The translations under genes were made by a program, and so were the position numbers. DNA of 64,000 nucleotides from a virus (Duplodnaviria > Caudoviricetes): IMG/VR virus record IMGVR_UViG_2799112443_000002, positions 1,254 to 65,253 of that record; one strand, written 5' to 3'. The notes beneath the pieces were generated by a model. The model worked only from the letters and a program-made list of their open reading frames with translations, was not told the DNA's origin and made no database searches. How positions within the stretch are numbered: the stretch's first letter is position 1; every line of letters starts with the position of its first letter. Positions 1,556 through 62,263 of the stretch are shown one piece after another.

Positions 1556-2008
1556 TCAAGCTATTCTGGATACAGTCATGTTGGCATTCTGCACGTTGAT
1601 CTCCGGTGCAACACCGTCAACAACCGCAGAAGCGTTCTCAACCGCCACTGTGAAACAGCATCCGCGCGGCACGGTAATGATCGCCGTGCTTGTCACGTTG
1701 CCGTATTCATCCACAGCAGCCGGAGTATAGATGGCTCTGCTGGTTTGAACAGGTTCTCCGTCAATGGCAAGTGCAACGCTGATCGGGACGATTGCAGTCG
1801 CATCCGCAGGCAGGGCAATGTTGCCATTGAAAGTCACCTGATACCTGGCAAAGCAGTTGTTCGTGATCCCACGTAGAATAACAATCCCTGATTCTTCCCG
1901 ATGCAGAACATATCCACGACGGCAAGGAATATTGTCATTGAGAATAACGTTTTGCCCTGGTTCAACTAATTGCACGGGGTTATATGTATATTCTGACATT
2001 GGAATCAC
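1556..2008 (-). CDS. Beta-rich protein, possibly BclA C-terminal/TNF-like fold
   Basis: ORF track; alternating hydrophobic beta pattern (YQVTFNGNIA...ISVALAIDGE...TVAVENAS). Fold assignment is recollection only. Confidence 0.6.
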   Translation of the reverse strand: MIPMSEYTYNPVQLVEPGQNVILNDNIPCRRGYVLHREESGIVILRGITNNCFARYQVTFNGNIALPADATAIVPISVALAIDGEPVQTSRAIYTPAAVDEYGNVTSTAIITVPRGCCFTVAVENASAVVDGVAPEINVQNANMTVSRIA

Positions 2009-2011
2009 CTC

Positions 2012-2830
2012 TTACGCCGCCATACCGCATCCGCAGCTGTTACCGCCGCAGGTAAAGATAGGAGTTCTGCCGTACACCGGAGTACTCGGTACAGGGCAGT
2101 TGTTCAGCCGGTTGTACAGGGCATCCACTTCATTGGAGAAACCCTGCTGGATGAACGCATTCTGTGCCGTCTGGCTCTCACGCAGAGCCGCCATGTTCAG
2201 CTGATTCTGAAGGGAGATATTTTCTCTCTGGGCGGAAGCCAGTTCAGCCTTCACGCCGTCCAGTTCCAGCTGGCAAAGTTTGTCCATAATCGCCTGGGTA
2301 TTCGCAGTTCCGGCGGCGCGGGTATTTGCACCTTCCGTTGCGATGGCATACTTCACGTCAGCCAGGCCGGCCTGCGTGTTGCATCCGACACCGGTAATGG
2401 CAGTCTGGAGACCAAACGTGGACTGCATGTCAGCGATCTGCCGAGCGTTAGCAGCGATCTCAGCCTGGGCAAAGCCGTTGCTGATGTTGCTGTTCACGGT
2501 GCCGAAACCGCTGCACAGAGCGTTCTGCACGTTGCCGAATCCGGTGGTCACAGCGTTCTGGATTCCGTTCAGCCCAGTAATCACGTAGTTCTGGTCAAAT
2601 CCGCGCTGAATGTCGTTGTTCGTGTTGCCCTGGCCGGCCATCATCCACGGGAACATGCCGTTTCCGCCGCCGAAGCCACCGCCGAAGCCGTTGCCCCATC
2701 CGCCAAGGCACAGAAGCAGAAGAATAATCCACCAGCCAGAGGATCCCATGTCGCCGAATCCGCCGTTGCTATACCCGCCGCCGTAATACGGTGCAACAGG
2801 CATTACCATAGAATTGTTTTCACTGGTCAT
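2012..2830 (-). CDS. Gly-rich membrane-anchored/coiled-coil protein with Cys-rich C-terminus
   Basis: WWIILLLLCLGGWG hydrophobic segment, Gly-rich tracts, coiled coil, ends CGGNSCGCGMAA. Confidence 0.75.
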   Translation of the reverse strand: MTSENNSMVMPVAPYYGGGYSNGGFGDMGSSGWWIILLLLCLGGWGNGFGGGFGGGNGMFPWMMAGQGNTNNDIQRGFDQNYVITGLNGIQNAVTTGFGNVQNALCSGFGTVNSNISNGFAQAEIAANARQIADMQSTFGLQTAITGVGCNTQAGLADVKYAIATEGANTRAAGTANTQAIMDKLCQLELDGVKAELASAQRENISLQNQLNMAALRESQTAQNAFIQQGFSNEVDALYNRLNNCPVPSTPVYGRTPIFTCGGNSCGCGMAA

Positions 2831-2996
2831 TGTTCTTGATTCCTTTCGTATATATTTCCTAATCGTCTATGCGCATCTCGACGAAAAGAATCAAAACAGA
2901 TATTTTCATTGGATTCTTTGCAAAAATTCTGCAAATTTTCCATTTATATTGTTATTTCAGAACGTTATTTGGAAAAAATGATCGGTTTTTTCCAAG

Positions 2997-3281
2997 TTAA
3001 CGTCCGATCATCTGCCGTGCCATCTGCACCATTTGAGGATTTACCTTCCCTGTCTGTTGCATCCAAGCCAGCAGTTGTTCTGGATTCCCAGACACTTCAG
3101 CCGGTGCATCCGGAAAGTATCTGCTGATTAATTGCTGTGGATTCTGAAGCGTATTCGCAAGCTGTTGCATTCTGCCAAATAACCCGCCAAATCCAGCGTT
3201 TGGCATCACGGTTGGAGAAGAAGTCATTGCGTTTTGTGGTGCGTTAAAACCGCCTGTCAAAGCCTGAAAAAGAGGATTCAT
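2997..3281 (-). CDS. Gln/Asn/Met/Pro-rich hypothetical protein
   Basis: ORF track; start overlaps the upstream stop codon. Confidence 0.7.
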   Translation of the reverse strand: MNPLFQALTGGFNAPQNAMTSSPTVMPNAGFGGLFGRMQQLANTLQNPQQLISRYFPDAPAEVSGNPEQLLAWMQQTGKVNPQMVQMARQMIGR

Positions 3282-3760
3282 TACGACTCTCCTTTCACCG
3301 GTCTCCTGTTCGCTCCGCTGGTATTCACGCTGTTAATGGCTTCCATCAGTTCCTGCTTCATCCGCTCCATGTCTTCCTTCTTCACATAATCCGTCATGAC
3401 AGGGGCTTCATCACCTGAAGTGTTGCTCATGGCAGGTCCGGTACCACGATGCTCTTCCAGCGTGTAATGTGCTTTCTGAAGCGGGTTCGGCATCCCCATC
3501 GGGTTCACAGACTTTAGATAGATAATGGTATCGTTCGTGTCCCACAGGGCAATCGGCTGGTTTGCAGGAAGTCCGGACGGCAGCTGATACGCCTTGGCGC
3601 CGACCTCTCCGTCCACCCAGATCAGGCCATGGCTCTGCTGGGTCTGGCTCGTCTGTGGCATGGTCTGCATAGCATTGCTCTGCGGATACTGCGGATACAT
3701 CTGCTGTCCGACTCCGCTGTAGTTCCAGTTGTTCTGATAAGGCACAGGATAGTTAGGCAT
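3281..3760 (-). CDS. Gln/Pro/Tyr-rich hypothetical protein
   Basis: AGAAGGAG RBS before ATG 3760 (MPNYPVPY); globular core GLIWVDGEVGAKAY...IYLKS. Confidence 0.7.
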   Translation of the reverse strand: MPNYPVPYQNNWNYSGVGQQMYPQYPQSNAMQTMPQTSQTQQSHGLIWVDGEVGAKAYQLPSGLPANQPIALWDTNDTIIYLKSVNPMGMPNPLQKAHYTLEEHRGTGPAMSNTSGDEAPVMTDYVKKEDMERMKQELMEAINSVNTSGANRRPVKGES

Positions 3761-4142
3761 GTTTGATCTCCTTCTTTCTGAAAAAATAGGTCGGTCGTTC
3801 ATCTCCGCTGTCCCAGGAATCCATATAATTTCCGGAACGGATACAAACAGCATGATGTCCCGTCCCGATCACATAGGTTCCGTGCGGATACTGTTTTGTA
3901 AACTCACGGACCGTGACGCATTCCGGGCAGGATTCCGGCAGAAGAAACTTTTCAAATCCGCATCGAAACAAGTATTGTTCCCACAGCCAGTTCACACTGG
4001 GCATGGTACACATGGCATGGCTCATGACGCACAGATCCCAGTGGACCTCGTCCCATGTCTGTCCGGTTGCCAGAGCAATGGCACGGACGACACAGTCCGG
4101 TTCCTCACTCCTGCACGGGTTTGGGTTGGCGTATATCCACAT
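3753..4142 (-). CDS. Putative papain-like (Cys-His-Asp) peptidase-fold protein
   Basis: DCVVRAIA, GHHAVCI and YMDSWDS are in the order expected for a Cys-His-Asp triad (inference). Confidence 0.55.
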   Translation of the reverse strand: MWIYANPNPCRSEEPDCVVRAIALATGQTWDEVHWDLCVMSHAMCTMPSVNWLWEQYLFRCGFEKFLLPESCPECVTVREFTKQYPHGTYVIGTGHHAVCIRSGNYMDSWDSGDERPTYFFRKKEIKHA

Positions 4143-4339
4143 CAGGCAATCTGCTTCGGAAAGATTCCGCAGTCCTCCAAGATAATCTCAACGACCTGGT
4201 CATCTTCTGGACGCAGGTCCATTAGGGCGGCGGTCATTAGCATCATGGCGTATGCGGTTTCAACGCTCATACCGACGGCAGAAACAAGCCGTTTAATCTG
4301 CTTCCGGCAATTCTTTGGATAACAGTTCAGAACGTTCAT
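4142..4339 (-). CDS. Hypothetical protein
   Basis: AGGAGGTG RBS before ATG 4339; coupled to the downstream gene. Confidence 0.55.
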   Translation of the reverse strand: MNVLNCYPKNCRKQIKRLVSAVGMSVETAYAMMLMTAALMDLRPEDDQVVEIILEDCGIFPKQIA

Positions 4340-4370
4340 ACAACGCACCTCCTTGCCTGTATTTTTGCAT

Positions 4371-4403
4371 AATAAAACCCCTTGCAGAAGTGACTGCAAG
4401 GGG
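4371..4403 (-). terminator. Intrinsic terminator closing the tail operon
   Basis: 10-bp stem CCCCTTGCAG/CTGCAAGGGG followed on the - strand by TTTTATT. Confidence 0.65.
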
Positions 4404-4429
4404 AAGTCTCGTGTATTTTGCGTGTAGTT

Positions 4430-4693
4430 TTAGTGGCTATATTGTTCCTCGGATTCCTCAATGATGATGACGTTGTTGGCTCCGATGACTACTTTTCGTC
4501 CTTCCATGGTGTGCAATGTGACTGTCCCGGATGCGGATGCAAACCAGCGATCAACTTCAAGTGTGTCCATGGATCCGTCAAAGTACCGGATCTTTGCCGT
4601 TGTGATACAGTTTCCTTCAGTGTTTGTATCACTGCAGCTTGTCAGCAATGCCAACGCAATTGCCAGGACTAGCAGAACAAGCAATTTCTTCAC
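4430..4693 (-). CDS. Small lipoprotein
   Basis: MKK + hydrophobic stretch + LTSC lipobox. Confidence 0.7.
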   Translation of the reverse strand: MKKLLVLLVLAIALALLTSCSDTNTEGNCITTAKIRYFDGSMDTLEVDRWFASASGTVTLHTMEGRKVVIGANNVIIIEESEEQYSH

Positions 4694-4788
4694 CTAATCA
4701 TCTCCTCTGTTTGCAGCAATTAATGCGGCAATCCAGAATCCTAATAGCGTACCGGTCATTACTGCCGGAATCAGTCCCCACCATGGAA

Positions 4789-5046
4789 TCATTCGCCGTC
4801 ACCTTCCGGTTCGGGTTCAGGTTCCGGAGCAGGAGCAGGATCATGGTGAATGTATTCTTTATAGCCTTCAACAACATCCAGCTGCTCGTCCGTAATCATG
4901 ACATAGGCAGTGATTACGTCTTGGGCGTTCCAGAGGGTTTGACAGAGTCCGTGGAACATGGTCTTTGCAGAAGAGATTTCCGTAATTCCCTCTGCATGGA
5001 TGAAGAAATTACCATTGATTACCTTTACGATAGCGAGTTTACCCAT
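4789..5046 (-). CDS. Hypothetical protein with PE-repeat tail
   Basis: ORF track; AGGAG RBS; ends PAPAPEPEPEPEGDGE. Confidence 0.65.
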   Translation of the reverse strand: MGKLAIVKVINGNFFIHAEGITEISSAKTMFHGLCQTLWNAQDVITAYVMITDEQLDVVEGYKEYIHHDPAPAPEPEPEPEGDGE

Positions 5047-5065
5047 AGTTCATTCTCCTCTCTTT

Positions 5066-8000
5066 TTATGCCAGAGCAGCGAGTTCATTCGCCACTGTGG
5101 TTGCAGTTACGTTCGTACCTACGGTTAATGTTGCACCGTTTGCAATGGATGCAGTCGCCTTGTAGAGTGTGCCGTTGACGATCAGCAGATTGCCCGTTGA
5201 GTAGGCTTTCGTGGCTTTCATTTCGTCTTCGTGGTTTGCCGTGACGATCAGTTCCATCAACCGCTGAGAAGCTGACAACTCTTTGGCAATATAGAGCTTG
5301 GTATCCGCAGAATACTCGACAGCATTGATTTTGCCCGTATTGGCAAAGATGTTATTGAGTCCTTTCAGCGTTTTTATGACTTCAAGGGCGGTGAGTTGGT
5401 ATACGATGGGGTCGGCAAGTAAATATGAAACCTGTGTCGGATTGCTTGCAAACCATGCCACTGCCGCTTCAGCCGATGTAACATCTGACGGCATATTCAG
5501 ATAAATGTTTCCGTTCGTGGTTCTTCCATTCAGCATAAATGGTTTTTGTGCCGGCGCAGGATTTTGGATGTAAAACTTATCAGACATAAGTCCTTCACCC
5601 ACATCAACGGATGCCGCCCACTTTTTGCTCGGTGTCGGAATATACCTTGCCTGCATTCCACCGTAGCTCAGCGTTCCGTTGTCTGCAAGTGGTTGCGTTC
5701 CGTTTAATGTGTTTATTGCCCTATCCACAACCAGTTCGCCCGTTCCATCCCTGTTGATGGTCAATATGCCACCATAGACGGTTCCTGCATCTTGTGGGAA
5801 GGTGATGGAGTAGGTGTTAACGTGTCCCGGATGGTACGCCGTATCAGTTGCAGGATAGTTAATGCTGATGTCGTGGTTGTAGGTTGTGCCGTAATTGCTT
5901 GTCATGCCAAACCAAATAAAGTAGCAGTTATCTGGCGTGGTAAAAGGGCCTGCATTGTATCGCACTCCGGCAAGCTGATTTTTGTCCTTGTCATAGTACT
6001 TAATACCATTTGACGGATTCGCAGGTGCACTAAAATAATAAGTCGTGTTTGGTTTGCATGGGATGAAGTTTTTGCTTCTCACATAAGAACCATTTGTGTC
6101 CCACTCTTCATCCCAGATGTTGGTTACCGTCCGTGTGACATTCGCTCCCGTCCATCCGCTGATGGGGCAGATGTTGCTATAGGGTGTCCATTCAGATTGC
6201 GAAGTTTCTGCAACTGTAACTTTGAATTTTATATCAACAGTTTCGCCTTCTGTCCTGTTTATAGCAATAGCAACATCTTTTTCCGTTGATGTCCTAAATC
6301 CATAAATATTGGTAATTGTTCCACCTGTAACATCTTGAGCTTGAACAACAAGATTCCTCCCAGAAAGGCTTGTGTCTGCATATTGGAATATCGCAAATGC
6401 ACCGCTTCCGGGTGTGGTTACGGTTCCATACACTCTGAATATATTGTCCGTTAATGAATACGAAAGCCCATATGCACCATTAAAAAGTGTCACCTTGCTC
6501 AAGTCCAACAGATTCTTCCCACCCCCCGCAGGCCAAGGGTTGTCAAATCCATGAAGATCCTGCATAGGTTCAACCGCAACCCTCAACGCCATCGGAATAT
6601 CGTCCGCTCCATCGCTGAAACTGGCAATGTCTGCAGGCGTATCGATGGACTCCGTGATCATCCCGGCATAGCGTTCGTCGGATTCTTCCTTGCTGTACTG
6701 CCCCAATGTTGGATAGAGCATGGACAGGATATCGCCCGTGTCTGCCCAGACATTGTTAGTGCCATTGAGCAGTTGCACAACCTGCTGAGAGGAGAGTTCG
6801 TAGGTGACGGGGGTGGCGAGTTTAAGAAGTATTTGCAATCCATTTGCACTCGCCCATTGCTTAAATTCTCCAACTGTTGACGCTTCGGATGAATACAAAC
6901 GAACATACAGCGTACTCGCTCCACTTACTGTATATCCCGGTTTCGTTGCGTTTGCTTGTGACGTTGAGTCATGAGGAAGCAAATTTGTTATAATGTCTTC
7001 GGTATAATCAAATTCCAATGGTGATTTGTAATATTTGAAATTAGCAATCCCGTGGTCATTGATTGCATTAAGTGTCCATGTGTTTGATTGTGTGTCAACA
7101 AATCCATGATCCACTACCAGTTCGCCCGTTCCATCCCTGTTGATGGTCAATGTGCCGCCATAGACTGTTCCGGCAGAGGACGGGAAGGAGATGGTGTAGG
7201 TGGAGCCTTGATACTGCTCAAACGATGATCTATTTGAACCAGCAACAAGCCATACCCAATATTTCTTATTTGATAAAGAAGCTCCGGAAGTGATTTTGTA
7301 GTAAGTATACACTATGCTGTCATGATCGAGTGTGAACGCACTATATTTATCTAATCCAATTGTCTTTATTGCCTTATCGCTTCCACCTTCAATATGTTCA
7401 GCAAGGATTGTTGCAACATTTTGAATTTGTTCGCTTTGCTCTATCATATAAGTTCCGGCTTTAAGCAGAAACATTGGAGAATTTCCTATTCCCCAGAACG
7501 TTCCCGTTGCAGTTCCATCGAACGTTACAGAACCATCAGCGTTTTGAGTTCCCGTAATACCTGATTGTGTTTTTGTAGTACCAACCGGATGCGGAATTAT
7601 CAGATTCCTCCCCGCACTCCACACGTTCGCATATTCCCACCCTGATATCGGGCAGGAGTTTTCGTAAGGTGTCCACGCCGTTGCTGTCGAGCCAGATTCA
7701 AGCTGATATTGGACTTTCACGTTATTAAATGCACCATAAGCAGGATATGCAAAAAGCCGAATATCAAATGTGCTTGTTCCATCTGCTGATATTTGCATCG
7801 CTGATTCTGTATTATATGTCCACGATCCGCTCCCAATCCTGTATCCGGTTCTCCACGATGATGTCCCTGCTCCCGTCATGCCATTCAATGTATATGTTCC
7901 AGCAGGAAGAACGCCACTGAAAAGAATGCAAGAAGCATTTGACGTAGCAGTCCCGGACATTTTTATATAATTCCCATCTTGAGTAAAAGTGACCCCGTTA

Positions 8001-8287
8001 TCTGTTGCCGTTGTAATCGGTTGAATTAGGTTTTTCCCGCCCCCAGCAGGCCACGGGTTCGCATATCCATGCAGGTCTTGAACAGGAGCAATCTCGATCT
8101 GCAACTTTTTCACGGCATCGGCAACAGCATCGTCTACCGTAACGATAGAACCGGAAGTTTCTTTGTATGCATACAGATTGTCAGCATTTGCCTTCTCGCT
8201 CAATTCTTCCTTTGTTTTCTTGTCAATCGCAGAAAGCAGCAGTTGCCCGTCTTCCAGGTTCATGAGTTTGTTGTTCTCATAACTCAT
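5066..8287 (-). CDS. Tail fibre / receptor-binding protein with an internally duplicated module
   Basis: 1073 aa after the baseplate genes; NPWPAGGGKNL and GTVYGGxLTINRDGTGELVVD each occur twice. Confidence 0.8.
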   Translation of the reverse strand: MSYENNKLMNLEDGQLLLSAIDKKTKEELSEKANADNLYAYKETSGSIVTVDDAVADAVKKLQIEIAPVQDLHGYANPWPAGGGKNLIQPITTATDNGVTFTQDGNYIKMSGTATSNASCILFSGVLPAGTYTLNGMTGAGTSSWRTGYRIGSGSWTYNTESAMQISADGTSTFDIRLFAYPAYGAFNNVKVQYQLESGSTATAWTPYENSCPISGWEYANVWSAGRNLIIPHPVGTTKTQSGITGTQNADGSVTFDGTATGTFWGIGNSPMFLLKAGTYMIEQSEQIQNVATILAEHIEGGSDKAIKTIGLDKYSAFTLDHDSIVYTYYKITSGASLSNKKYWVWLVAGSNRSSFEQYQGSTYTISFPSSAGTVYGGTLTINRDGTGELVVDHGFVDTQSNTWTLNAINDHGIANFKYYKSPLEFDYTEDIITNLLPHDSTSQANATKPGYTVSGASTLYVRLYSSEASTVGEFKQWASANGLQILLKLATPVTYELSSQQVVQLLNGTNNVWADTGDILSMLYPTLGQYSKEESDERYAGMITESIDTPADIASFSDGADDIPMALRVAVEPMQDLHGFDNPWPAGGGKNLLDLSKVTLFNGAYGLSYSLTDNIFRVYGTVTTPGSGAFAIFQYADTSLSGRNLVVQAQDVTGGTITNIYGFRTSTEKDVAIAINRTEGETVDIKFKVTVAETSQSEWTPYSNICPISGWTGANVTRTVTNIWDEEWDTNGSYVRSKNFIPCKPNTTYYFSAPANPSNGIKYYDKDKNQLAGVRYNAGPFTTPDNCYFIWFGMTSNYGTTYNHDISINYPATDTAYHPGHVNTYSITFPQDAGTVYGGILTINRDGTGELVVDRAINTLNGTQPLADNGTLSYGGMQARYIPTPSKKWAASVDVGEGLMSDKFYIQNPAPAQKPFMLNGRTTNGNIYLNMPSDVTSAEAAVAWFASNPTQVSYLLADPIVYQLTALEVIKTLKGLNNIFANTGKINAVEYSADTKLYIAKELSASQRLMELIVTANHEDEMKATKAYSTGNLLIVNGTLYKATASIANGATLTVGTNVTATTVANELAALA

Positions 8288-9024
8288 TAATTACCACCCC
8301 CATAGAAATCATTTATCATTGCTTCCATTTCTGAAAGCGTTGCCACATCAGAATAAGACAATTCTCCAGGATCTCCCTTTGGGATGCCGATGTTCAATAC
8401 CGGATTCTCAGCAGTTCCAGTTATTGATATCGTCACATCTGAACCAGCGGGAAGCGTGCTCGCCTCTCCAGCAGTTAAGTTTGGCGTTGCGCCTGTATCA
8501 CCCTTTTCCCCAGGATCACCTTTTTCGCCTGTAGCCGGAACATCCGTTGAGATCCATTCTTCACTTGCTTCATCCCATGTGTACCAAAATCCATCGATAA
8601 CCTTTGGATAATGCTCAACGTTTGCCTCCGTTTGATCAACTGCATAATTCAATGCAGCAATCGCTTGAGTAATGACATCCTGTTGTACCGGAGTTGGTTC
8701 CTGATTTGTTGGTTTCGCTCTTTTAATAACAGGAATCATTCCAGTTATAACTGTCTCGCCATCATTTTCTCCACTATGCAGAAACAGCCAGATGTAAATA
8801 TTTTTACCGCTCAACAAGTACTCATCCGGGATATCAATTCCTGTGCTGTCCCCTATAACAGTTTTTGATTCCTCATAAGTGCCATTGGAAAAATGCACTT
8901 CATATGTATTCGGAAGCGGGCAATTATCCAGGATCAATCGTTGCCCATAATCATATTGGTACAACGACTCTGTTTTATTAAATTTCCCTGGATAATATTT
9001 TAGGACCACAATATTATTTCTCAA
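8287..9024 (-). CDS. BppU-like baseplate protein with collagen-like repeats
   Basis: LYQYDYGQRL N-terminal motif; GEKGDPGEKGDTGA Gly-X-Y repeats. Confidence 0.7.
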   Translation of the reverse strand: MRNNIVVLKYYPGKFNKTESLYQYDYGQRLILDNCPLPNTYEVHFSNGTYEESKTVIGDSTGIDIPDEYLLSGKNIYIWLFLHSGENDGETVITGMIPVIKRAKPTNQEPTPVQQDVITQAIAALNYAVDQTEANVEHYPKVIDGFWYTWDEASEEWISTDVPATGEKGDPGEKGDTGATPNLTAGEASTLPAGSDVTISITGTAENPVLNIGIPKGDPGELSYSDVATLSEMEAMINDFYGGGN

Positions 9025-32936: not shown

Positions 32937-33140
32937 TCGTTATCATGTTTTCTAGATAATAACACACGTTTTGTTGATTGTAAAGCTTTTTTTATTTTTT
33001 CGGGGCGGATGGGGGTAACGCGGCAAAATCGGCCAGGCTGATTTTCCCCCGGGCCCCCTTCGGCCGCAGCCATGGCCGAAAACTATACCCGGGACAATTT
33101 TGTCCCGGGTATTTTCCCGGATCTGGAACAAAAAACAACA

Positions 33141-33540
33141 GGCAGGCAGCAGGCAGGAGGCGGCAGGAGGCAGGCAGCAGGCAGGCAGGAGGCGGCAGGA
33201 GGCAGGCAGGAGGCGGCAGGAGGCAGCAGGAGGCAGCAGGAGGCAGCAGCAGGCAGCAGCAGACAGCAGCAGGCGGCAGGAGGCAGCTGCAGGCAGCAGC
33301 AGGCAGCAGCAGGCAGCAGCAGGCAGCAGCAGGCAGCAGGAGGCAGCAGGAGGCAGCTGCAGGCAGCAGCAGGCAGCAGTAGGCAGCAGCAGGCGGCAGG
33401 AGGCAGCTGCAGGCAGCAGCAGGCAGCAGCAGGCAGCAGCAGGCAGCAGGAGGCAGCAGGAGGCAGCAGGAGGCAGCTGCAGGCAGCAGCAGGCAGCAGT
33501 AGGCAGCAGCAGGCGGCAGGAGGCAGCTGGAGGCAGCAAA
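33141..33540 (+). repeat. Decamer satellite (AGGCRGCWGS)n with 120-bp higher-order repeat
   Basis: 32 in-register decamers 33221-33540; more degenerate GGCAGG-rich copies 33141-33220. Confidence 0.95.
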
Positions 33541-57422: not shown

Positions 57423-57902
57423 TCATGCTTCATTTTCCTGGAGAATCTCAAGTGCTTTTTCAATTTCTACTTTCGCCCCTGTCCATTCAAGAACATTCCT
57501 ATATTTGCCCATGTAGCTATTCAATTCTTTCTGCGCCTGCTCACGCAATGCGTCTCTTCCGTTCTGTGTGCGAATTAACACCGCTGTGCTTTCATACTGT
57601 GAATTGTCTACCTGGGCCACTTTGAAAAAAGCACGGATTGGTTCTTTTTCCTTTAAACTGGTTTCTTCCGGAATCATCAGAAGGCTGTTAATCATGCATC
57701 TGCCCTGCTGTTTCCGCCAGTTCTCTGCTGCCTTTGTATCGTCCCATTCAAAGTCATCATGAAGAGGTGCATTCTTCGGACGACTGACTTCAACCAGGTT
57801 TTCAGCGTTCAACTGTCCTGTTTTTGCAAGCTTGTTCATAACCTTCGCAGCTTTTTCCGGATCGGCTTTAAAGTTGTATCCAATCCGCCATTTGTAAACC
57901 AT
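57423..57902 (-). CDS. Conserved hypothetical protein directly downstream of the pentamer array (159 aa)
   Basis: AAAGGAGG RBS before ATG 57902; MVYKW...SRPKNAPLHDDFEWDD..AAENWR. The longer track ORF reads through the array. Confidence 0.75.
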   Translation of the reverse strand: MVYKWRIGYNFKADPEKAAKVMNKLAKTGQLNAENLVEVSRPKNAPLHDDFEWDDTKAAENWRKQQGRCMINSLLMIPEETSLKEKEPIRAFFKVAQVDNSQYESTAVLIRTQNGRDALREQAQKELNSYMGKYRNVLEWTGAKVEIEKALEILQENEA

Positions 57903-57934
57903 TCCATTTCCTCCTTTATTCTTGTGAATCCACA

Positions 57935-58778
57935 CCTGCCACGCCATTCCTTGCCTTACCGGTCCGCGCCTCGCCAATCCGGGCCACGCCCTTCCTAACC
58001 ACACCATTCCTCGCCCCGCCTGCCATGCCTTACCTTGCCCCACCGGTCCACGCCATGCCCAACCCGACCGAACCTCGCCAGCCATTCCACGCCTTACCAA
58101 GCCTCGCCCATCCACACCGAACCTGTCCGCTCCTCGCCGTGCCCCACCTCGCCTCGCCTGCCTTGCCTCGCCAATCCATGCCACGCCAATCCTCACCCAG
58201 CCCGGACATACCGTGCCTTGCCTGCCATACCTTACCGCTCCTGTCCGCTCCATACCATACCACGCCACGCCTTTCCATTCCCCGCCTGCCAAACCTTGCC
58301 TAACCGTACCTATCCCGACCTTGACCCGCCGTACCAAGCCATTCCACGCATTGCCATTCCTGCCATTCCACGCCAAGCCTTACCTATCCTGACCGTTCCA
58401 AGCCACGCCTCTCCATGCAGGACCTTACCTTGCCTGCCATGCCACACCTTACCTATCCTCGCCCATCCACACCGCACCTGTCCGCTCCTCGCCGTGCCCC
58501 GCCTCGCCTGCCAAGCCAAGCCATACCGTGCCCAAACGCACCATTCCTCGCCCGACCGAGCCATGCCCTGCCTGCCATACCTCGCCAGTCCAAGCCAAAC
58601 CCGTCCGCTCCGCGCCCGACCTCGCCTTGCCATGCCTGCCACACCAAACCTATCCAGTCCACACCTGACCTAACCTTGCCAGACCGAACCCTGCCTTGCC
58701 CCACCAAGCCTGCCAAGCCGTACCGCGCCTTGCCAATCCGCACCCAACCTTTCCGTACCACGCCCCGCCACGCCTGCC
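57935..58778 (-). ncRNA. GGH-NN pentamer array, 12 units separated by GGCA(GG); putative guide-RNA array
   Basis: 158 pentamers, 153 starting GGC/GGT/GGA; unit lengths are all 5n+4. Confidence 0.85.
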
Positions 58779-58832
58779 TCGACGGAGGAAGGAGAAGAAA
58801 TCCCCTTCCTCCAGCCTGCCACGATTGTTGAA

Positions 58833-59531
58833 TTAACCTTCAACTTCAGTCTTGCTTTCAACGGCGAAAGTGCCAAAACTTCCATCTTTTTCCGGTCGCC
58901 ATTCGCCAACACCCCCACAGAAACCACTCAGATTAATGAGGTTGATAATCTGTTCCAGGCTAATCGCGCCGCCCTTGTTATAACGGATGCGAAGATCAGC
59001 ATACCAGTCATCGAACTGTGCCCTATGTCGGATATCGGCGGCTTTTGATATTCCGCCAACACGAACCATATCCTCGCGGATATGTGGTACACTTCCCTTG
59101 ATTTCAACCAACTGATCTGGTCCTTCACCTTCAATAAAGAAGGAAGCACGGATTTGTGTGCCTTTCAGATCAAGTCCATTCCGGCTGGCTGCCATAATCG
59201 CTGCTTGTTTAAATGCTGTGGCCGGGAATCCCCATCTGGCTCCGTTCTTCACGGCTTCTTCAAAATTGGCAATGCACTCTTCGTCAGTTTCTCCGGTCGG
59301 TTCCGGCGTCAGCCAGTAAGCGGAATTGATGAAGTCACGGGCCGGGATCTTTTTCTCACGCTTGGAGTCCACCTTGGTTTCCTGGGTCTGTGTATCCAGG
59401 ATCATCTTCTTTGCCTTTTCAGACCACTTGTGGCTGATCAACGGGGCGGTTCCACGAATCCGTACGTCAACTGTCCGGATGTCAAAAGATTTGATTTCTA
59501 CAACTTCCTGCGCATTCTTCTTAGTAGCCAT
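58833..59531 (-). CDS. RAMP/Cas7-like RNA-binding protein (Vipr-like)
   Basis: IRGTAPLISH first strand, GFPATAFKQA helix, C-terminal Gly-rich loop GFCGGVGEWRPEKDGSFGTF; GAAAGGA RBS before ATG 59531. Confidence 0.75.
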   Translation of the reverse strand: MATKKNAQEVVEIKSFDIRTVDVRIRGTAPLISHKWSEKAKKMILDTQTQETKVDSKREKKIPARDFINSAYWLTPEPTGETDEECIANFEEAVKNGARWGFPATAFKQAAIMAASRNGLDLKGTQIRASFFIEGEGPDQLVEIKGSVPHIREDMVRVGGISKAADIRHRAQFDDWYADLRIRYNKGGAISLEQIINLINLSGFCGGVGEWRPEKDGSFGTFAVESKTEVEG

Positions 59532-59650
59532 TTCAATTTCCTTTCTCCGCATATGCGGCCTTGATTTATTTTCTTTTTTGATTTACAATGAACATACTGT
59601 ATCACCTCTGGAACCGTCTGACCTCGCACGTCAGCGGTTCTTTCTTTTTG

Positions 59651-60341: not shown

Positions 60342-60566
60342 TTATCTCGTTTCGTTATTGCCTTCTGCAAAAAAAAGATCTCCAACCGTTGTTCCAAAGA
60401 AATCCGCCAGGATAACTTTATTCTGATCGCTTGGGGCTCTTTCCCCATATTCATAAGAGCAAAGCGTCCGGTAATTAATTTTAGTTTTCTTTGCAACAAA
60501 TCGTTTTGTCATTCCACGCTCTTCCCGCATGGACTTTAAACGCTCTCCGATTTTTTCCTTAGTCAT
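60342..60566 (-). CDS. Cro-like XRE HTH regulator
   Basis: RLKSMREERGMTKRFVAKKTKINYRTLCSYEYGERAP; divergent from the repressor. Confidence 0.85.
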   Translation of the reverse strand: MTKEKIGERLKSMREERGMTKRFVAKKTKINYRTLCSYEYGERAPSDQNKVILADFFGTTVGDLFFAEGNNETR

Positions 60567-60734
60567 TGTTTGTGTCTCACCTCCTGTGCATTATATTATC
60601 ACTTTTCACGATAAAATCAATATGATTCGAGATTAATTTATTATTACAAAAATATGTTGACTTTGTAATACTTTGTGTGATAACATTATTTACGGTTAAC
60701 ACGCATTGTGGTAACATTAGAAAGGAGAATAATA
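60567..60734. promoter_or_regulatory. Lysis-lysogeny switch intergenic region with divergent promoters
   Basis: TTGACT...TGaTAACAT on +; TTGATT...TGaTAATAT on -; inverted repeat ATTACAAA-N10-TTTGTAAT. Confidence 0.55.
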
Positions 60735-61085
60735 ATGACATTCGGAGAAAAACTCAGAAATTTAAGGCAGTCCAGGTTTATTTCCCAGCAAAAACTTGCC
60801 GATGCTATTGGTCTGAGTCAAGCGGCAATCGCCAGTTATGAGACTGGTGTCAGAGAGCCTGCTTTCAGCGTCATTGAGAAATTTGCAAAATATTTTAATG
60901 TTCCTTTTTCATCTTTAACACCTTCTAACATAGAATCAGATGATGATTTTCTGATTCGGCTGAGTGAAAGCCTGCAAACAAATCCGAAGCTAAAGGATTT
61001 GTTTAAAATTTCAATGACACTTGATAATGATAAAATCGATACATTACTTGTTGTTGCAAAATCTCTGGATATAAAGGCTGAATAA
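60735..61085 (+). CDS. CI-like repressor (XRE HTH)
   Basis: FGEKLRNLRQSRFISQQKLADAIGLSQAAIASYETGVREP; no S24 peptidase domain. Confidence 0.85.
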   Translation: MTFGEKLRNLRQSRFISQQKLADAIGLSQAAIASYETGVREPAFSVIEKFAKYFNVPFSSLTPSNIESDDDFLIRLSESLQTNPKLKDLFKISMTLDNDKIDTLLVVAKSLDIKAE

Positions 61086-61090
61086 TAATT

Positions 61091-62263
61091 ATGGGTGAAA
61101 ACAAACGCAAACCAAAGTCCCGTGGCAATGGGCAAGGTACGGCATATCGACGACCTGGGCAAACTGAATGGACCGTGGAAGTTGTCGTTGGCTGGAAATA
61201 CGTGGACGGAGATCCGACAAGGCCAAAGCGTCCTGTTAGAAAAACAAAGGGCGGTTTTAAAACAAAAAAAGATGCACTTGCCTATGCACCGACTCTGTTG
61301 TTGCAAGGAGATAAACGTGTCCGCATGTCCATGGAAGAAGTATGGCTTGCCTGGAAGACATTCTATTCTTCCAGAATCATACCTTCTACCATGGATGGGT
61401 ACTACTATGCCTACAAGCATTTTGCTCCACTTCATGGCACATACATGGATCTTATAACAGCAGATGATTTGCAGAAATGCATGGATGATTGCCAGTCCGG
61501 GAAACGCACACATGAAAACATGCGGTGCATTGCAAACCTCTTGTGGAAATATGCCATTGATAAGAACATTATAGACCGAAATGTTGCAGCAAACCTCTTC
61601 ACAGGTAAAGGTGTGTCAGTTCAGCGGGAAGCACTTACAGATCAGGAAGAAGCAGCTATAAAATCTGCTATTGGAAATGAACGTTATGCGGAATATGTTT
61701 ACTGCCTTTGCTGGCTTGGATACCGCCCTGGCGAAATGCTTCAGCTTCGAAAGGATCAGCTGTTCTGTGCACCGGTAAAGACAGAAGATGAAACACTAAA
61801 CATATGGTATTTTGTTAACGGGAAAAAGACAGATGCAGGGCGTGACCGGATTGTTATTGTGCCGGATGAAATTCTCCAGTTTATTCTGGAACGTTTGTAT
61901 ATTCCCGGAACGGATCTTATCTTTCCACAGTACCAATTTAACAGAAAAAAAGAACCAACGTTTGTTGGCTTTAAAGAAATGACTGATGCATACTTCCGTG
62001 TTGAGATTTTCAAACCGATGATGGCAAGACTCGGAATTGCATCCGGAAAAGTTCCGTATGCCGGGCGGCATTCCTATGCAGATAAACTAAAATCTGCATC
62101 CGGAGCTGAAAAAGATAAAGCCGCATTGATCGGTCATAGCAACTATCTGTTCACGCAAAACAAGTATCAAAGCACCCACTTAAAAGACCTTTACGACCTC
62201 GTAAACAGCTTTTCTACTCCCATCTTACTCCCATCATCAAACGCTGAAACCGTTGAAAAATAA
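61091..62263 (+). CDS. int: Tyrosine integrase
   Basis: Arm-binding N-terminus (RGNGQGT), GYRPGEM catalytic Arg, YAGRHSY, IGH, KY catalytic Tyr. Confidence 0.92.
   Translation: MGENKRKPKSRGNGQGTAYRRPGQTEWTVEVVVGWKYVDGDPTRPKRPVRKTKGGFKTKKDALAYAPTLLLQGDKRVRMSMEEVWLAWKTFYSSRIIPSTMDGYYYAYKHFAPLHGTYMDLITADDLQKCMDDCQSGKRTHENMRCIANLLWKYAIDKNIIDRNVAANLFTGKGVSVQREALTDQEEAAIKSAIGNERYAEYVYCLCWLGYRPGEMLQLRKDQLFCAPVKTEDETLNIWYFVNGKKTDAGRDRIVIVPDEILQFILERLYIPGTDLIFPQYQFNRKKEPTFVGFKEMTDAYFRVEIFKPMMARLGIASGKVPYAGRHSYADKLKSASGAEKDKAALIGHSNYLFTQNKYQSTHLKDLYDLVNSFSTPILLPSSNAETVEK

What the first reader, a model, noticed from the sequence alone, without database searches (positions are those of the whole stretch)
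57423..59552. Minimal RNA-guided-looking system: RAMP/Cas7-like gene + array of GGH-NN pentamers + conserved downstream gene
SEEN: after the stop of a 232-aa ORF with RAMP hallmarks (N-terminal IRGTAPL strand, GFPATAFKQA helix, C-terminal Gly-rich loop GGVGEWRPEKDGSFG) comes a hairpin leader and then ~840 nt with strict 5-nt periodicity on the - strand. 153 of 158 pentamers begin GGC, GGT or GGA (never GGG; 36 are GGA) and the last two bases are free. A 4-nt GGCA (once GGCT) insert resets the phase, giving 12 units of 64,74,64,64,74,74,74,64,64,79,59,84 nt, all 5n+4. KNOWN: Cas7-family RAMPs polymerise along crRNA with a fixed nucleotide step per subunit. INFERENCE: each unit is a processed guide; one protomer binds each constant GGH and presents NN for pairing, so the target is written as a gapped code of 22-32 informative bases rather than a contiguous spacer. 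There is no cas1/cas2, nuclease or helicase nearby, suggesting silencing or roadblocking, e.g. against competing phages. The locus is in the early lytic operon behind Cro and Xis. I recall a recent report of 'VIPR' systems (Vipr protein plus GGY/NN RNAs) that this would match; I cannot verify that here. The frequent GGA triplets would be a variant.
Basis: partly seen in the sequence, partly recalled or inferred. Interest (0 to 1): 0.97.

Follow-up and report, generated by a model that had tools for sequence, protein, structure and literature searches.

The report
Phage VIPR guide-RNA system, staggered array
A temperate phage carries a VIPR system, a CRISPR-related RNA-guided DNA silencer first described in 2026 preprints, made of a small Cas7-like protein, 12 guide RNAs written in five-base repeats and a partner gene. 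Five of the guides spell conserved motifs of a rival phage family's DNA-replication genes, so this is a well-supported new example of a known kind.

Summary
The interpretation, including the recalled name VIPR, is essentially right. VIPR is a published system (bioRxiv 10.64898/2026.04.26.720920, .720927 and 10.64898/2026.10.15.759431).

- **Vipr protein:** the 232-aa ORF is a Vipr. It has a Cas7/Csm3 fold (Z 11.6), and its family profile hits the solved SUSP1 Vipr (E 2.4e-7). The five residues that hold the two guanines are invariant in its clade.
- **Array:** the 840-nt stretch holds 12 units of GGH-NN pentamers. Units are separated by an invariant GGCA, which is a 1-nt overlap, the 'staggered array' the paper mentions.
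- **Accessory gene:** the downstream 159-aa gene lies next to vipr in 147 of 160 related loci, so it is a vap-type gene. Its fold is unknown.
- **Array linkage:** 148 of 161 loci carry such arrays on the vipr strand.
- **Unit turnover:** unit content turns over between near-identical phages.
- **Targets:** under the published 1-nt-skip code, units 1, 4, 5, 8 and 10 match conserved motifs of DNA polymerase A, a DUF2800 nuclease and a Sak4-like ATPase of another phage family. The skipped base falls on the codon wobble position. There were 129 hits, against 0, 1 and 0 for other skip rules and 0.3 for shuffled guides.
- **Same assembly:** two contigs of this genome assembly carry such targets.

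The scan has found VIPR arrays before on other DNA (91 notes). Verdict: new member of a known kind. Expression and processing were not tested.

The parts
58833..59531 (-). vipr: 232-aa Vipr protein, a minimal Cas7-like RAMP
   Evidence: AF2 model pLDDT 84.8. Foldseek best hits are Csm3 and type VII Cas7, E 9e-6. VIA-align Z 11.6 over 160 residues. phmmer hits PDB 36pp 'SUSP1 Vipr protein' at E 7e-4, and the family profile hits it at E 2.4e-7. H34, R170, E210, W211 and R212 are invariant in the clade and align with SUSP1 H17, R138, D177, W178 and R179. Also phrog_4652.
58775..58820 (-). Leader: GGCAGG junction motif (58820-58815), 12-13 bp hairpin (58812-58784), then a second GGCA junction (58778-58775)
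   Evidence: RNAfold gives -31.7 kcal/mol. L161, L003/L005 and L008 have hairpins of different sequence at the same place between two GGCAGG motifs. L162, L164 and L012 start the array directly at GGCAGG. No T-run follows, so it is not terminator-like.
57937..58774 (-). vrRNA array: 12 staggered units of 11-16 GGH-NN pentamers, each closed by GGCA (once GGCT). Unit borders: 58774, 58710, 58636, 58572, 58508, 58434, 58360, 58286, 58222, 58158, 58079, 58020
   Evidence: Parse. In 227 distinct junctions from related loci the junction reads GG-C(100%)-A(94%)-GG. No Rfam family matches, so no hammerhead and no CRISPR repeat. Units 1 and 4 match DNA pol A, units 5 and 10 match DUF2800, and unit 8 matches AAA_24/Sak4 of rival phages.
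57927..57936 (-). Two trailing pentamers (GGTGT GGATT) after the last junction, running into the ribosome-binding site of vap
   Evidence: The AGGAGG at 57915-57910 lies 7 nt before the ATG at 57902.
57423..57902 (-). vap-type accessory gene, 159 aa, function unknown
   Evidence: tblastn finds it in 147 of 160 vipr loci, always on the same strand and downstream. It is also present in 33 of the 34 cultured phages that have the Vipr. phrog_15946. AF2 pLDDT 92.7. No convincing fold match, no Pfam family, no PDB sequence relative.
60342..60566 (-). Cro-like HTH_3 gene that heads the early operon containing vipr. It diverges from a cI-like HTH_3 gene (60708-61085, +) and an integrase (61091-62263, +)
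   Evidence: Pfam. Divergent promoter-like sites at 60640-60714. The 98%-identical relative L161 has the same gene order.

Best explanation
This is a VIPR (Viral Interference Programmable Repeat) system of a temperate phage. The gene order is vipr, a staggered vrRNA array, then a vap-type accessory gene.

**Shown here:**
- The protein is a Vipr-family RAMP with the guanine-binding residues intact.
- The array follows the GG-(not G)-NN grammar with an invariant GGCA punctuation.
- Protein, array and accessory gene travel together across about 160 loci.
- Five of the 12 units match conserved motifs of replication genes of another phage family under the published NN-x code. The genes are DNA polymerase A, a DUF2800 PD-(D/E)XK nuclease and an AAA_24/Sak4-like ATPase. 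The matches lie on either DNA strand, with x on the codon wobble base.

**Inferred from the SUSP1 work:**
- The early operon transcribes vipr, array and vap as one RNA after infection or induction.
- That RNA is cut or trimmed at the GGCAG|G junctions into 12 vrRNAs of 11-16 repeats.
- One Vipr protomer binds each repeat, sequestering GGH and presenting NN.
- The filament binds double-stranded DNA of a competing phage or co-resident prophage at those motifs and blocks transcription of its replication module.
- Skipping the wobble base keeps the guide effective against synonymous escape mutations.

The role of Vap is unknown. [quoted passage not shown]
For: - **Literature:**
- **Protein:**
- **Array grammar and junction:**
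- **Linkage of array to vipr:** 148 of 161 loci have at least 10 in-phase GG pentamers on the vipr strand, against 7 on the other strand. In 264 cases the borders between runs are -1 nt.
- **Linkage of vap to vipr:** vap is found in 147 of 160 loci. The array lies between vipr and vap in 95 loci, after vap in 34 and before vipr in 19.
- **Unit turnover:** units are gained, lost and reordered between phages whose Vipr is 84-98% identical. In homologous units NN is kept while the third base drifts.
- **Unit 8 target:** it matches the Sak4-like gene on contig C176 of the same assembly at 22 of 24 positions, where the null maximum is 17-20. It reaches 23 of 24 in IMG/VR Sak4 loci and at least 78% in 74 hits across 81 loci.
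- **Other targets:** units 5 and 10 reach 24/28 and 25/30 on the DUF2800 motif EGT[DE]AH. Unit 1 reaches 21/24 and unit 4 reaches 22/24 (opposite strand) inside DNA pol A.
- **Skip-rule control:** in 1.49 Mb of such loci, hits at 80% or more number 129 for the 1-nt skip, 0, 1 and 0 for skips 0, 2 and 3, 0.3 for shuffled guides and 0 for reversed guides.
- **Codon register:** x is at codon position 3 in 51 of the 52 hits with a single open frame.
- **Contig C113:** the best hits in the whole 4.26-Mb genome for units 1, 4, 5 and 10 all fall within 3.5 kb of contig C113, at the homologous motifs.
- **Independent guides:** guides of the related arrays L161 and L162 hit the same genes, and L162 unit 4 hits another site of the Sak4-like gene.
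- **No self-targeting:** the best self-match in the window is at noise level.
Against: - No expression, processing or binding data exist for this locus.
- Seven of the 12 units have no target in anything searched.
- The Sak4 and DUF2800 loci were collected because units 8, 5 and 10 had pointed to those genes. Only the DNA pol A hits of units 1 and 4 are free of that selection, and homologous loci are not independent.
- Staggered arrays are described in the paper from sequence only. They are not among the architectures the paper confirmed by small-RNA sequencing.
- The Vipr type (I-VII) and the identity of this vap with vap1-6 could not be determined, because the supplementary files are not held.
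- The contigs C113 and C176 belong to a 197-contig assembly of 89% completeness. Co-residence in one cell is therefore not proven.
Confidence: 0.88

Rival explanations
1. It is the same VIPR machinery, but used as prophage-encoded superinfection immunity. The locus would be expressed from the lysogen, from a promoter of its own in the 118-nt gap before vipr, and would protect the host and prophage against incoming phages that carry the targeted replication module. Under this reading it is not a weapon switched on only in the lytic cycle.
For: - The published reprogrammed system protects cells against lambda.
- The targets are replication genes that an invading phage needs early.
- There is a hairpin and a 118-nt untranslated gap upstream of vipr.
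Against: - vipr lies on the Cro side of the divergent immunity promoters. No - strand promoter-like site was found between 59532 and 59650, and no terminator-like site separates it from the early genes.
- This differs from the main reading only in timing, and sequence cannot decide it.
Confidence: 0.25
2. The pentamer tract is not a guide array. It would instead be a structural or recombinogenic G-rich repeat, since GG every 5 nt can form two-tetrad G-quadruplexes, or a translated Gly/Trp/Arg-rich low-complexity extension of the downstream gene. A 317-aa ORF (57423-58376) runs through it.
For: - Long ORFs are open across the tract on both strands.
- Gene callers call such ORFs in relatives, for example a 324-aa product in L162.
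- The sequence has G4 potential. This is my own inference and was not computed.
Against: - A 5-nt period with -1 slips cannot keep a reading frame.
- The GG and the GGCA junction are conserved while every frame's 'protein' changes.
- The downstream gene has its own ribosome-binding site and ATG, and homologues are 145-185 aa.
- The NN strings spell conserved motifs of foreign genes only under the 1-nt skip rule. Neither alternative predicts that.
Confidence: 0.02
3. It is a degenerate or minimal CRISPR-Cas relative (type IV-like or type III-like) that uses contiguous spacers and targets RNA.
For: The closest solved folds are Csm3 and Cas7 of types III and VII.
Against: - There is no repeat-spacer array and no CRISPR repeat family.
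- No other cas gene occurs among the conserved neighbours.
- Contiguous (skip 0) reading of the NN strings gives no hits.
- Four guides have the same sense as the coding strand, so they cannot pair with the mRNA.
Confidence: 0.02

Closest known systems
VIPR systems with 'staggered' vrRNA arrays (bioRxiv 10.64898/2026.04.26.720920, main text and the legend of fig. S18)
   Same: - A Vipr RAMP gene, an adjacent array of GG-pyrimidine-NN pentamers and a vap gene, in a provirus and without cas genes.
- Successive vrRNAs overlap by 1 nt, so the end of one marks the start of the next. Here that is the GGCA/GG junction, found in 264 run borders of related loci.
   Different: - The third base is H, not Y: 22% GGA here, 21-43% in the immediate subclade, against a clade median of 5%.
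- With 12 units the array is at the large end of those seen: at most 8 in-phase runs in the 80 IMG/VR loci, though the relatives L161 and L162 have 13 and 12.
- A hairpin lies between two junction motifs ahead of unit 1.
- The type number could not be assigned.
Type II VIPR of Escherichia phage SUSP1 (Vipr, Vap1 and four vrRNAs; PDB 36pp; bioRxiv 10.64898/2026.04.26.720927 and 10.64898/2026.10.15.759431)
   Same: - The protein family is the same (profile E 2.4e-7), with the same G-loop motif G-V/I-G-D/E-W-R-P.
- H, R, D/E, W and R occupy the guanine-binding positions.
- Guides have 9-16 repeats.
- The 1-nt skip code has the skip on the wobble base of conserved codons in a competitor's genes.
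- The accessory gene is of about 150 aa.
   Different: - Sequence identity is too low for tblastn.
- There is no 3' tail or pseudoknot between units, which abut directly.
- Gly stands at the position of SUSP1 C173, which lines the pocket said to exclude purines at repeat position 3.
- The predicted targets are replication genes of other phages, not a satellite's recombinase.
- Homology of this vap to Vap1 was not testable.
Cas7/Csm3 backbone subunits of class 1 CRISPR-Cas (types III and VII)
   Same: An RRM core, a glycine-rich loop and a thumb. One subunit binds per fixed step along a guide RNA, with periodic flipped bases.
   Different: - The step is 5 nt, of which 3 are sequestered, instead of a 6-nt step with 1 flipped.
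- There is no repeat-derived handle, no Cas5, Cas6, Cas10 or large subunit, no acquisition genes and no spacers.

Membership tests
VIPR system | Vipr protein: a single-RRM RAMP with a G-loop and thumb, related to the founding Vipr proteins | tested here: met
   Fold Z 11.6 to Csm3 over 160 residues at rmsd 3.7. Foldseek E 9e-6. HMM profile to PDB 36pp SUSP1 Vipr at E 2.4e-7. The guanine-contact residues are conserved.
VIPR system | An adjacent non-coding array of YNNGG/GGYNN pentamers (at least 4 repeats) with variable NN | tested here: met
   153 of 158 pentamers start with GG, but the third base is C, T or A. NN differs between related phages. The paper itself allows 'a related consensus'.
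VIPR system | A minimal locus with a vipr-accessory (vap) gene and no cas genes or CRISPR array | tested here: met
   The accessory gene is conserved in 147 of 160 loci and no other neighbour is conserved. No Rfam CRISPR repeat matches. Which of vap1-6 it is could not be tested.
VIPR system | Viral or proviral context | tested here: met
   Integrase, cI-like and Cro-like genes adjoin the locus. An exonuclease VIII-like gene lies downstream. 566 relatives were found in IMG/VR.
VIPR system | Non-contiguous recognition with one skipped target base per NN (1-nt skip rule) | tested here: met
   Tested in silico only: 129 hits at 80% or more under skip 1, against 0, 1 and 0 under skips 0, 2 and 3, and 0.3 for shuffled guides. 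The wobble register holds in 51 of 52 hits.
VIPR system | vrRNAs are expressed, processed and bound by Vipr as a filament, which represses the DNA target | not testable with these tools
VIPR system, staggered-array architecture | Successive vrRNAs overlap by 1 nt, with no tail or ribozyme between them | tested here: met
   All 11 internal borders slip by -1. No hammerhead or other Rfam match.
CRISPR-Cas (class 1) | A repeat-spacer array with contiguous spacers, plus further cas genes (Cas5, Cas6, a large subunit, Cas1 and Cas2) | tested here: not met
   There is no such array or Rfam repeat, no conserved cas neighbours, and the contiguous reading finds nothing.

The most novel reading that the evidence does not exclude
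In this lineage the repeat grammar may have relaxed from GGY to GGH because the Vipr pocket for repeat base 3 changed. Gly stands where SUSP1 has C173, in the G-loop FCGGVGEW rather than FxCG[IV]GEW. If so, the repeat grammar and the Vipr pocket co-evolve, and Vipr/vrRNA pairs with different grammars could be orthogonal. A second point is that the co-assembled contig C113 carries the targeted DUF2800 and Pol A motifs at only 73-79% match. That would fit an escape variant tolerated beside the VIPR phage.
Probability: 0.2. Interest if true: 0.5.

Novelty: new member of a known kind. Interest (0 to 1): 0.35.

Why it matters
- **Staggered class:** this is a clean natural example of the staggered-array class of VIPR, which the founding paper describes from sequence only.
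- **Predicted targets:** it comes with predicted natural targets, the most conserved motifs of DNA polymerase A, a DUF2800 nuclease and a Sak4-like ATPase of another phage family. This supports the view that VIPR is a tool of phage-against-phage competition and that skipping the wobble base makes guides hard to escape.
- **Testable material:** the locus offers 12 guides, a GGH repeat variant, a universally linked accessory protein of unknown fold, and a hairpin-plus-junction leader. These could be used to work out how tail-less arrays are processed.
- **Scope:** it does not change the picture already published.

Tried and rejected
- **Vap function:** nothing usable came from Pfam, PDB sequence search with the protein or the profile, Foldseek, the wide VIA search (only the C-terminal helical hairpin matched, Z up to 6.9) or the ESM Atlas (viral hypotheticals only).
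- **Targets of the seven remaining units (2, 3, 6, 7, 9, 11, 12):**
  - No hit above noise in the own genome, in 160 vipr loci, in four whole rival-phage records or in five whole related VIPR phages and the window itself.
  - The conserved core of unit 6 has no exact match in IMG/VR.
  - The 16-base core of unit 2 gave 12 matches that do not extend, so they are chance.
- **Unit 8 and unit 10 patterns:** the full unit 8 pattern has no exact IMG/VR match, although 23 of 24 exists. Unit 10 with up to 3 mismatches was not found in the 151 genomes of the host's family that were searched.
- **DUF2800 as a single-protein query:** it found no IMG/VR relatives. An alignment was needed.
- **Type I-VII assignment:** not possible, because no supplementary files are held.
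- **G-loop residue against GGA use:** the link is suggestive only. Lineages with Cys at that position also reach 30% GGA, and the comparison is confounded by descent.
Full report
**Observation.** On the - strand a 232-aa ORF (58833-59531) is followed by a short leader and then about 840 nt with a strict 5-nt rhythm. Base identity at lag 5 is 0.52, against 0.20-0.35 at lags that are not multiples of 5. The phase in which GG recurs slips by exactly -1 at eleven places. Parsing gives 12 units of 64, 74, 64, 64, 74, 74, 74, 64, 64, 79, 59 and 84 nt (58774-57937). Each unit is 11-16 pentamers closed by GGCA, once GGCT. The gene after the array starts at the ATG at 57902 (159 aa), behind an AGGAGG site.

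**The literature.** bioRxiv 10.64898/2026.04.26.720920 describes Vipr, a minimal RAMP found by structure search. It also describes vrRNAs of 9-16 GGY/NN repeats and a vap accessory gene, mostly in proviruses and viruses. [quoted passage not shown] The cryo-EM paper (.720927) shows one protomer per repeat. G1 is read by H17 and D177. G2 is held by R138 and W178. Y3 sits in a narrow pocket (E71, M72, C173, T175, R179) that excludes purines, and one target base per repeat is flipped out. A third paper shows that SUSP1 needs vipr and vap1 to beat its satellite, and that the skip base follows codon periodicity.

**The protein.** It has 3,871 relatives in metagenomes and belongs to phrog_4652. The AlphaFold model (pLDDT 84.8) matches Csm3 and Cas7 of type III and VII CRISPR systems, with Foldseek E 9e-6 and VIA-align Z 11.6 over 160 residues at rmsd 3.7. 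By sequence it hits the solved SUSP1 Vipr (PDB 36pp) at E 7e-4, and the family profile hits it at E 2.4e-7. In that alignment SUSP1 H17, R138, D177, W178 and R179 correspond to H34, R170, E210, W211 and R212, all invariant in the clade alignment. The position of C173 is Gly in the window's protein.

**Linkage.** I fetched 80 IMG/VR loci and 80 loci from genomes of many phyla. The IMG/VR scan alone confirmed 566 relatives. Of 161 loci, including the window, 148 have at least 10 in-phase GG pentamers on the vipr strand, against 7 on the opposite strand. Borders between runs are -1 nt in 264 cases. Across 227 distinct junctions the motif is GG, C (100%), A (94%), GG. The staggered architecture is therefore the rule in this clade.

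The 159-aa gene is found in 147 of 160 loci, always downstream on the same strand, while no other neighbour is conserved. It is also in 33 of the 34 cultured phages (Mycobacterium, Gordonia, a cyanophage) that have the Vipr. The array lies between the two genes in 95 loci, after vap in 34 and before vipr in 19. Its model is confident (pLDDT 92.7), but no fold, family or solved relative was found.

**Variation.** A phage with a 98%-identical Vipr (L161) shares most units, but in a different order and with units gained and lost. Phages at 88% and 84% identity (L164, L162) share only three and two units. In homologous units the NN letters are kept while the third base drifts among A, C and T. This is what a guide array under selection for its targets should look like. 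GGA makes up 22% of triplets here and 21-43% in this subclade, which has Gly at the C173 position, against a clade median of 5%. Lineages with Cys there also reach 30%, so the link is only a lead.

**First target leads.** I read each unit as NN-x and searched both strands.
- In the window's own 4.26-Mb assembly, unit 8 matches contig C176 at 22 of 24 positions. Guides of the same length drawn at random from the array's own dinucleotides reach 17-20 at most.
- The site is in frame in a Sak4-like AAA_24 gene. The contig carries a Gam-like gene, this gene, a helicase and a primase, so it is another phage's replication module.
- In 81 loci holding that gene from IMG/VR, unit 8 gives 74 hits at 78% or more, up to 23 of 24. 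A different unit of L162 hits another site of the same gene.
- Units 5 and 10 are near-duplicates. They pointed to a DUF2800 nuclease gene on contig C113.

**Rival-phage module and controls.**
- In 80 DUF2800 loci, units 5 and 10 reach 24/28 and 25/30 at the motif EGT[DE]AH. Units 1 (21/24) and 4 (22/24, opposite strand) hit the DNA polymerase A gene of the same module.
- In 1.49 Mb of these loci, hits at 80% or more number 129 under the 1-nt skip, 0, 1 and 0 under skips 0, 2 and 3, 0.3 for shuffled guides and 0 for reversed guides.
- Where a single frame is open, the skipped base is the codon's third in 51 of 52 hits.
- The best genome-wide hits of units 1, 4, 5 and 10 all fall within 3.5 kb of C113 at the homologous motifs, at 73-79% match.
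- Nothing in the window itself or in five related VIPR phages is matched.
- Caveat: the Sak4 and DUF2800 loci were gathered because of leads from units 8, 5 and 10. Only the polymerase hits are free of that choice, and homologous loci are not independent.
- Seven units remain without a target.

**Context and mechanism.** The locus lies on the Cro side of a divergent cI/Cro pair next to an integrase. No terminator-like site lies between vipr, the array and vap, and no known RNA family matches the region. Ahead of unit 1 a hairpin sits between two GGCAGG motifs. Relatives have hairpins of different sequence at the same place or none.

The most likely working is this. The early transcript is cut or trimmed at the junctions into 12 vrRNAs. 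Vipr protomers coat each of them. The filaments bind a competitor's replication genes on double-stranded DNA and silence them. Only the parts list, the grammar, the linkage and the in-silico targets are shown here. The rest is carried over from SUSP1. Transcription and complex formation could not be examined.

**Verdict.** This is a new member of a known kind, and the scan has already met such arrays on other DNA. Three things are new. The first is the predicted target set, conserved motifs of a rival phage replication module that is partly present in the same assembly. The second is the GGH repeat variant. The third is the near-universal accessory protein of unknown fold.

Noticed in passing
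window 33140-33540 (+): An intergenic tandem repeat of about 400 nt with a 10-nt unit (AGGCRGCWGS), followed by an AT-rich tract and a promoter-like region. My GG-pentamer scan picked it up, but it has no variable NN and no vipr next to it.
   Followed up: partly
G000 contig C113 (L246) 5147-8906: A DUF2800 nuclease and a DNA pol A module in the same assembly carry the motifs targeted by units 1, 4, 5 and 10, but at only 73-79% NN match. That is below the 80% used in the paper. It may be a tolerated or escaped competitor, or a binning companion from another strain.
   Followed up: partly
G000 contig C176 (L165) 1816-8417: A fragment of a second phage replication module: a Mu Gam-like gene, a Sak4-like AAA_24 gene, a helicase and a primase. 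Unit 8 matches the Sak4-like gene at 22 of 24 positions (2847-2882).
   Followed up: yes
window 57423-58376 (-); L162:3546-4520 (-): Stop-free stretches across vrRNA arrays produce long spurious ORFs. Public gene calls list them as proteins (a 324-aa product in L162), so protein databases probably contain many translated VIPR arrays.
   Followed up: no
Mycobacterium phages Saal, Quico, Florinda, Donkeykong, Brocalys and others; Gordonia phages UmaThurman, Pipp, ODay, Ecliptus: These cultured actinobacteriophages carry the same vipr-vap pair (35-37% identity to the window's Vipr), both annotated as hypothetical proteins. They would be tractable models for this Vipr clade.
   Followed up: partly
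junctions in L001-L164 and the window: The last two pentamers before a GGCA junction almost never have G as their fifth base (0-1%, against 11-16% just after the junction). The first pentamer after the junction is GGC in 78% of cases. The punctuation signal may therefore extend beyond the four bases.
   Followed up: partly
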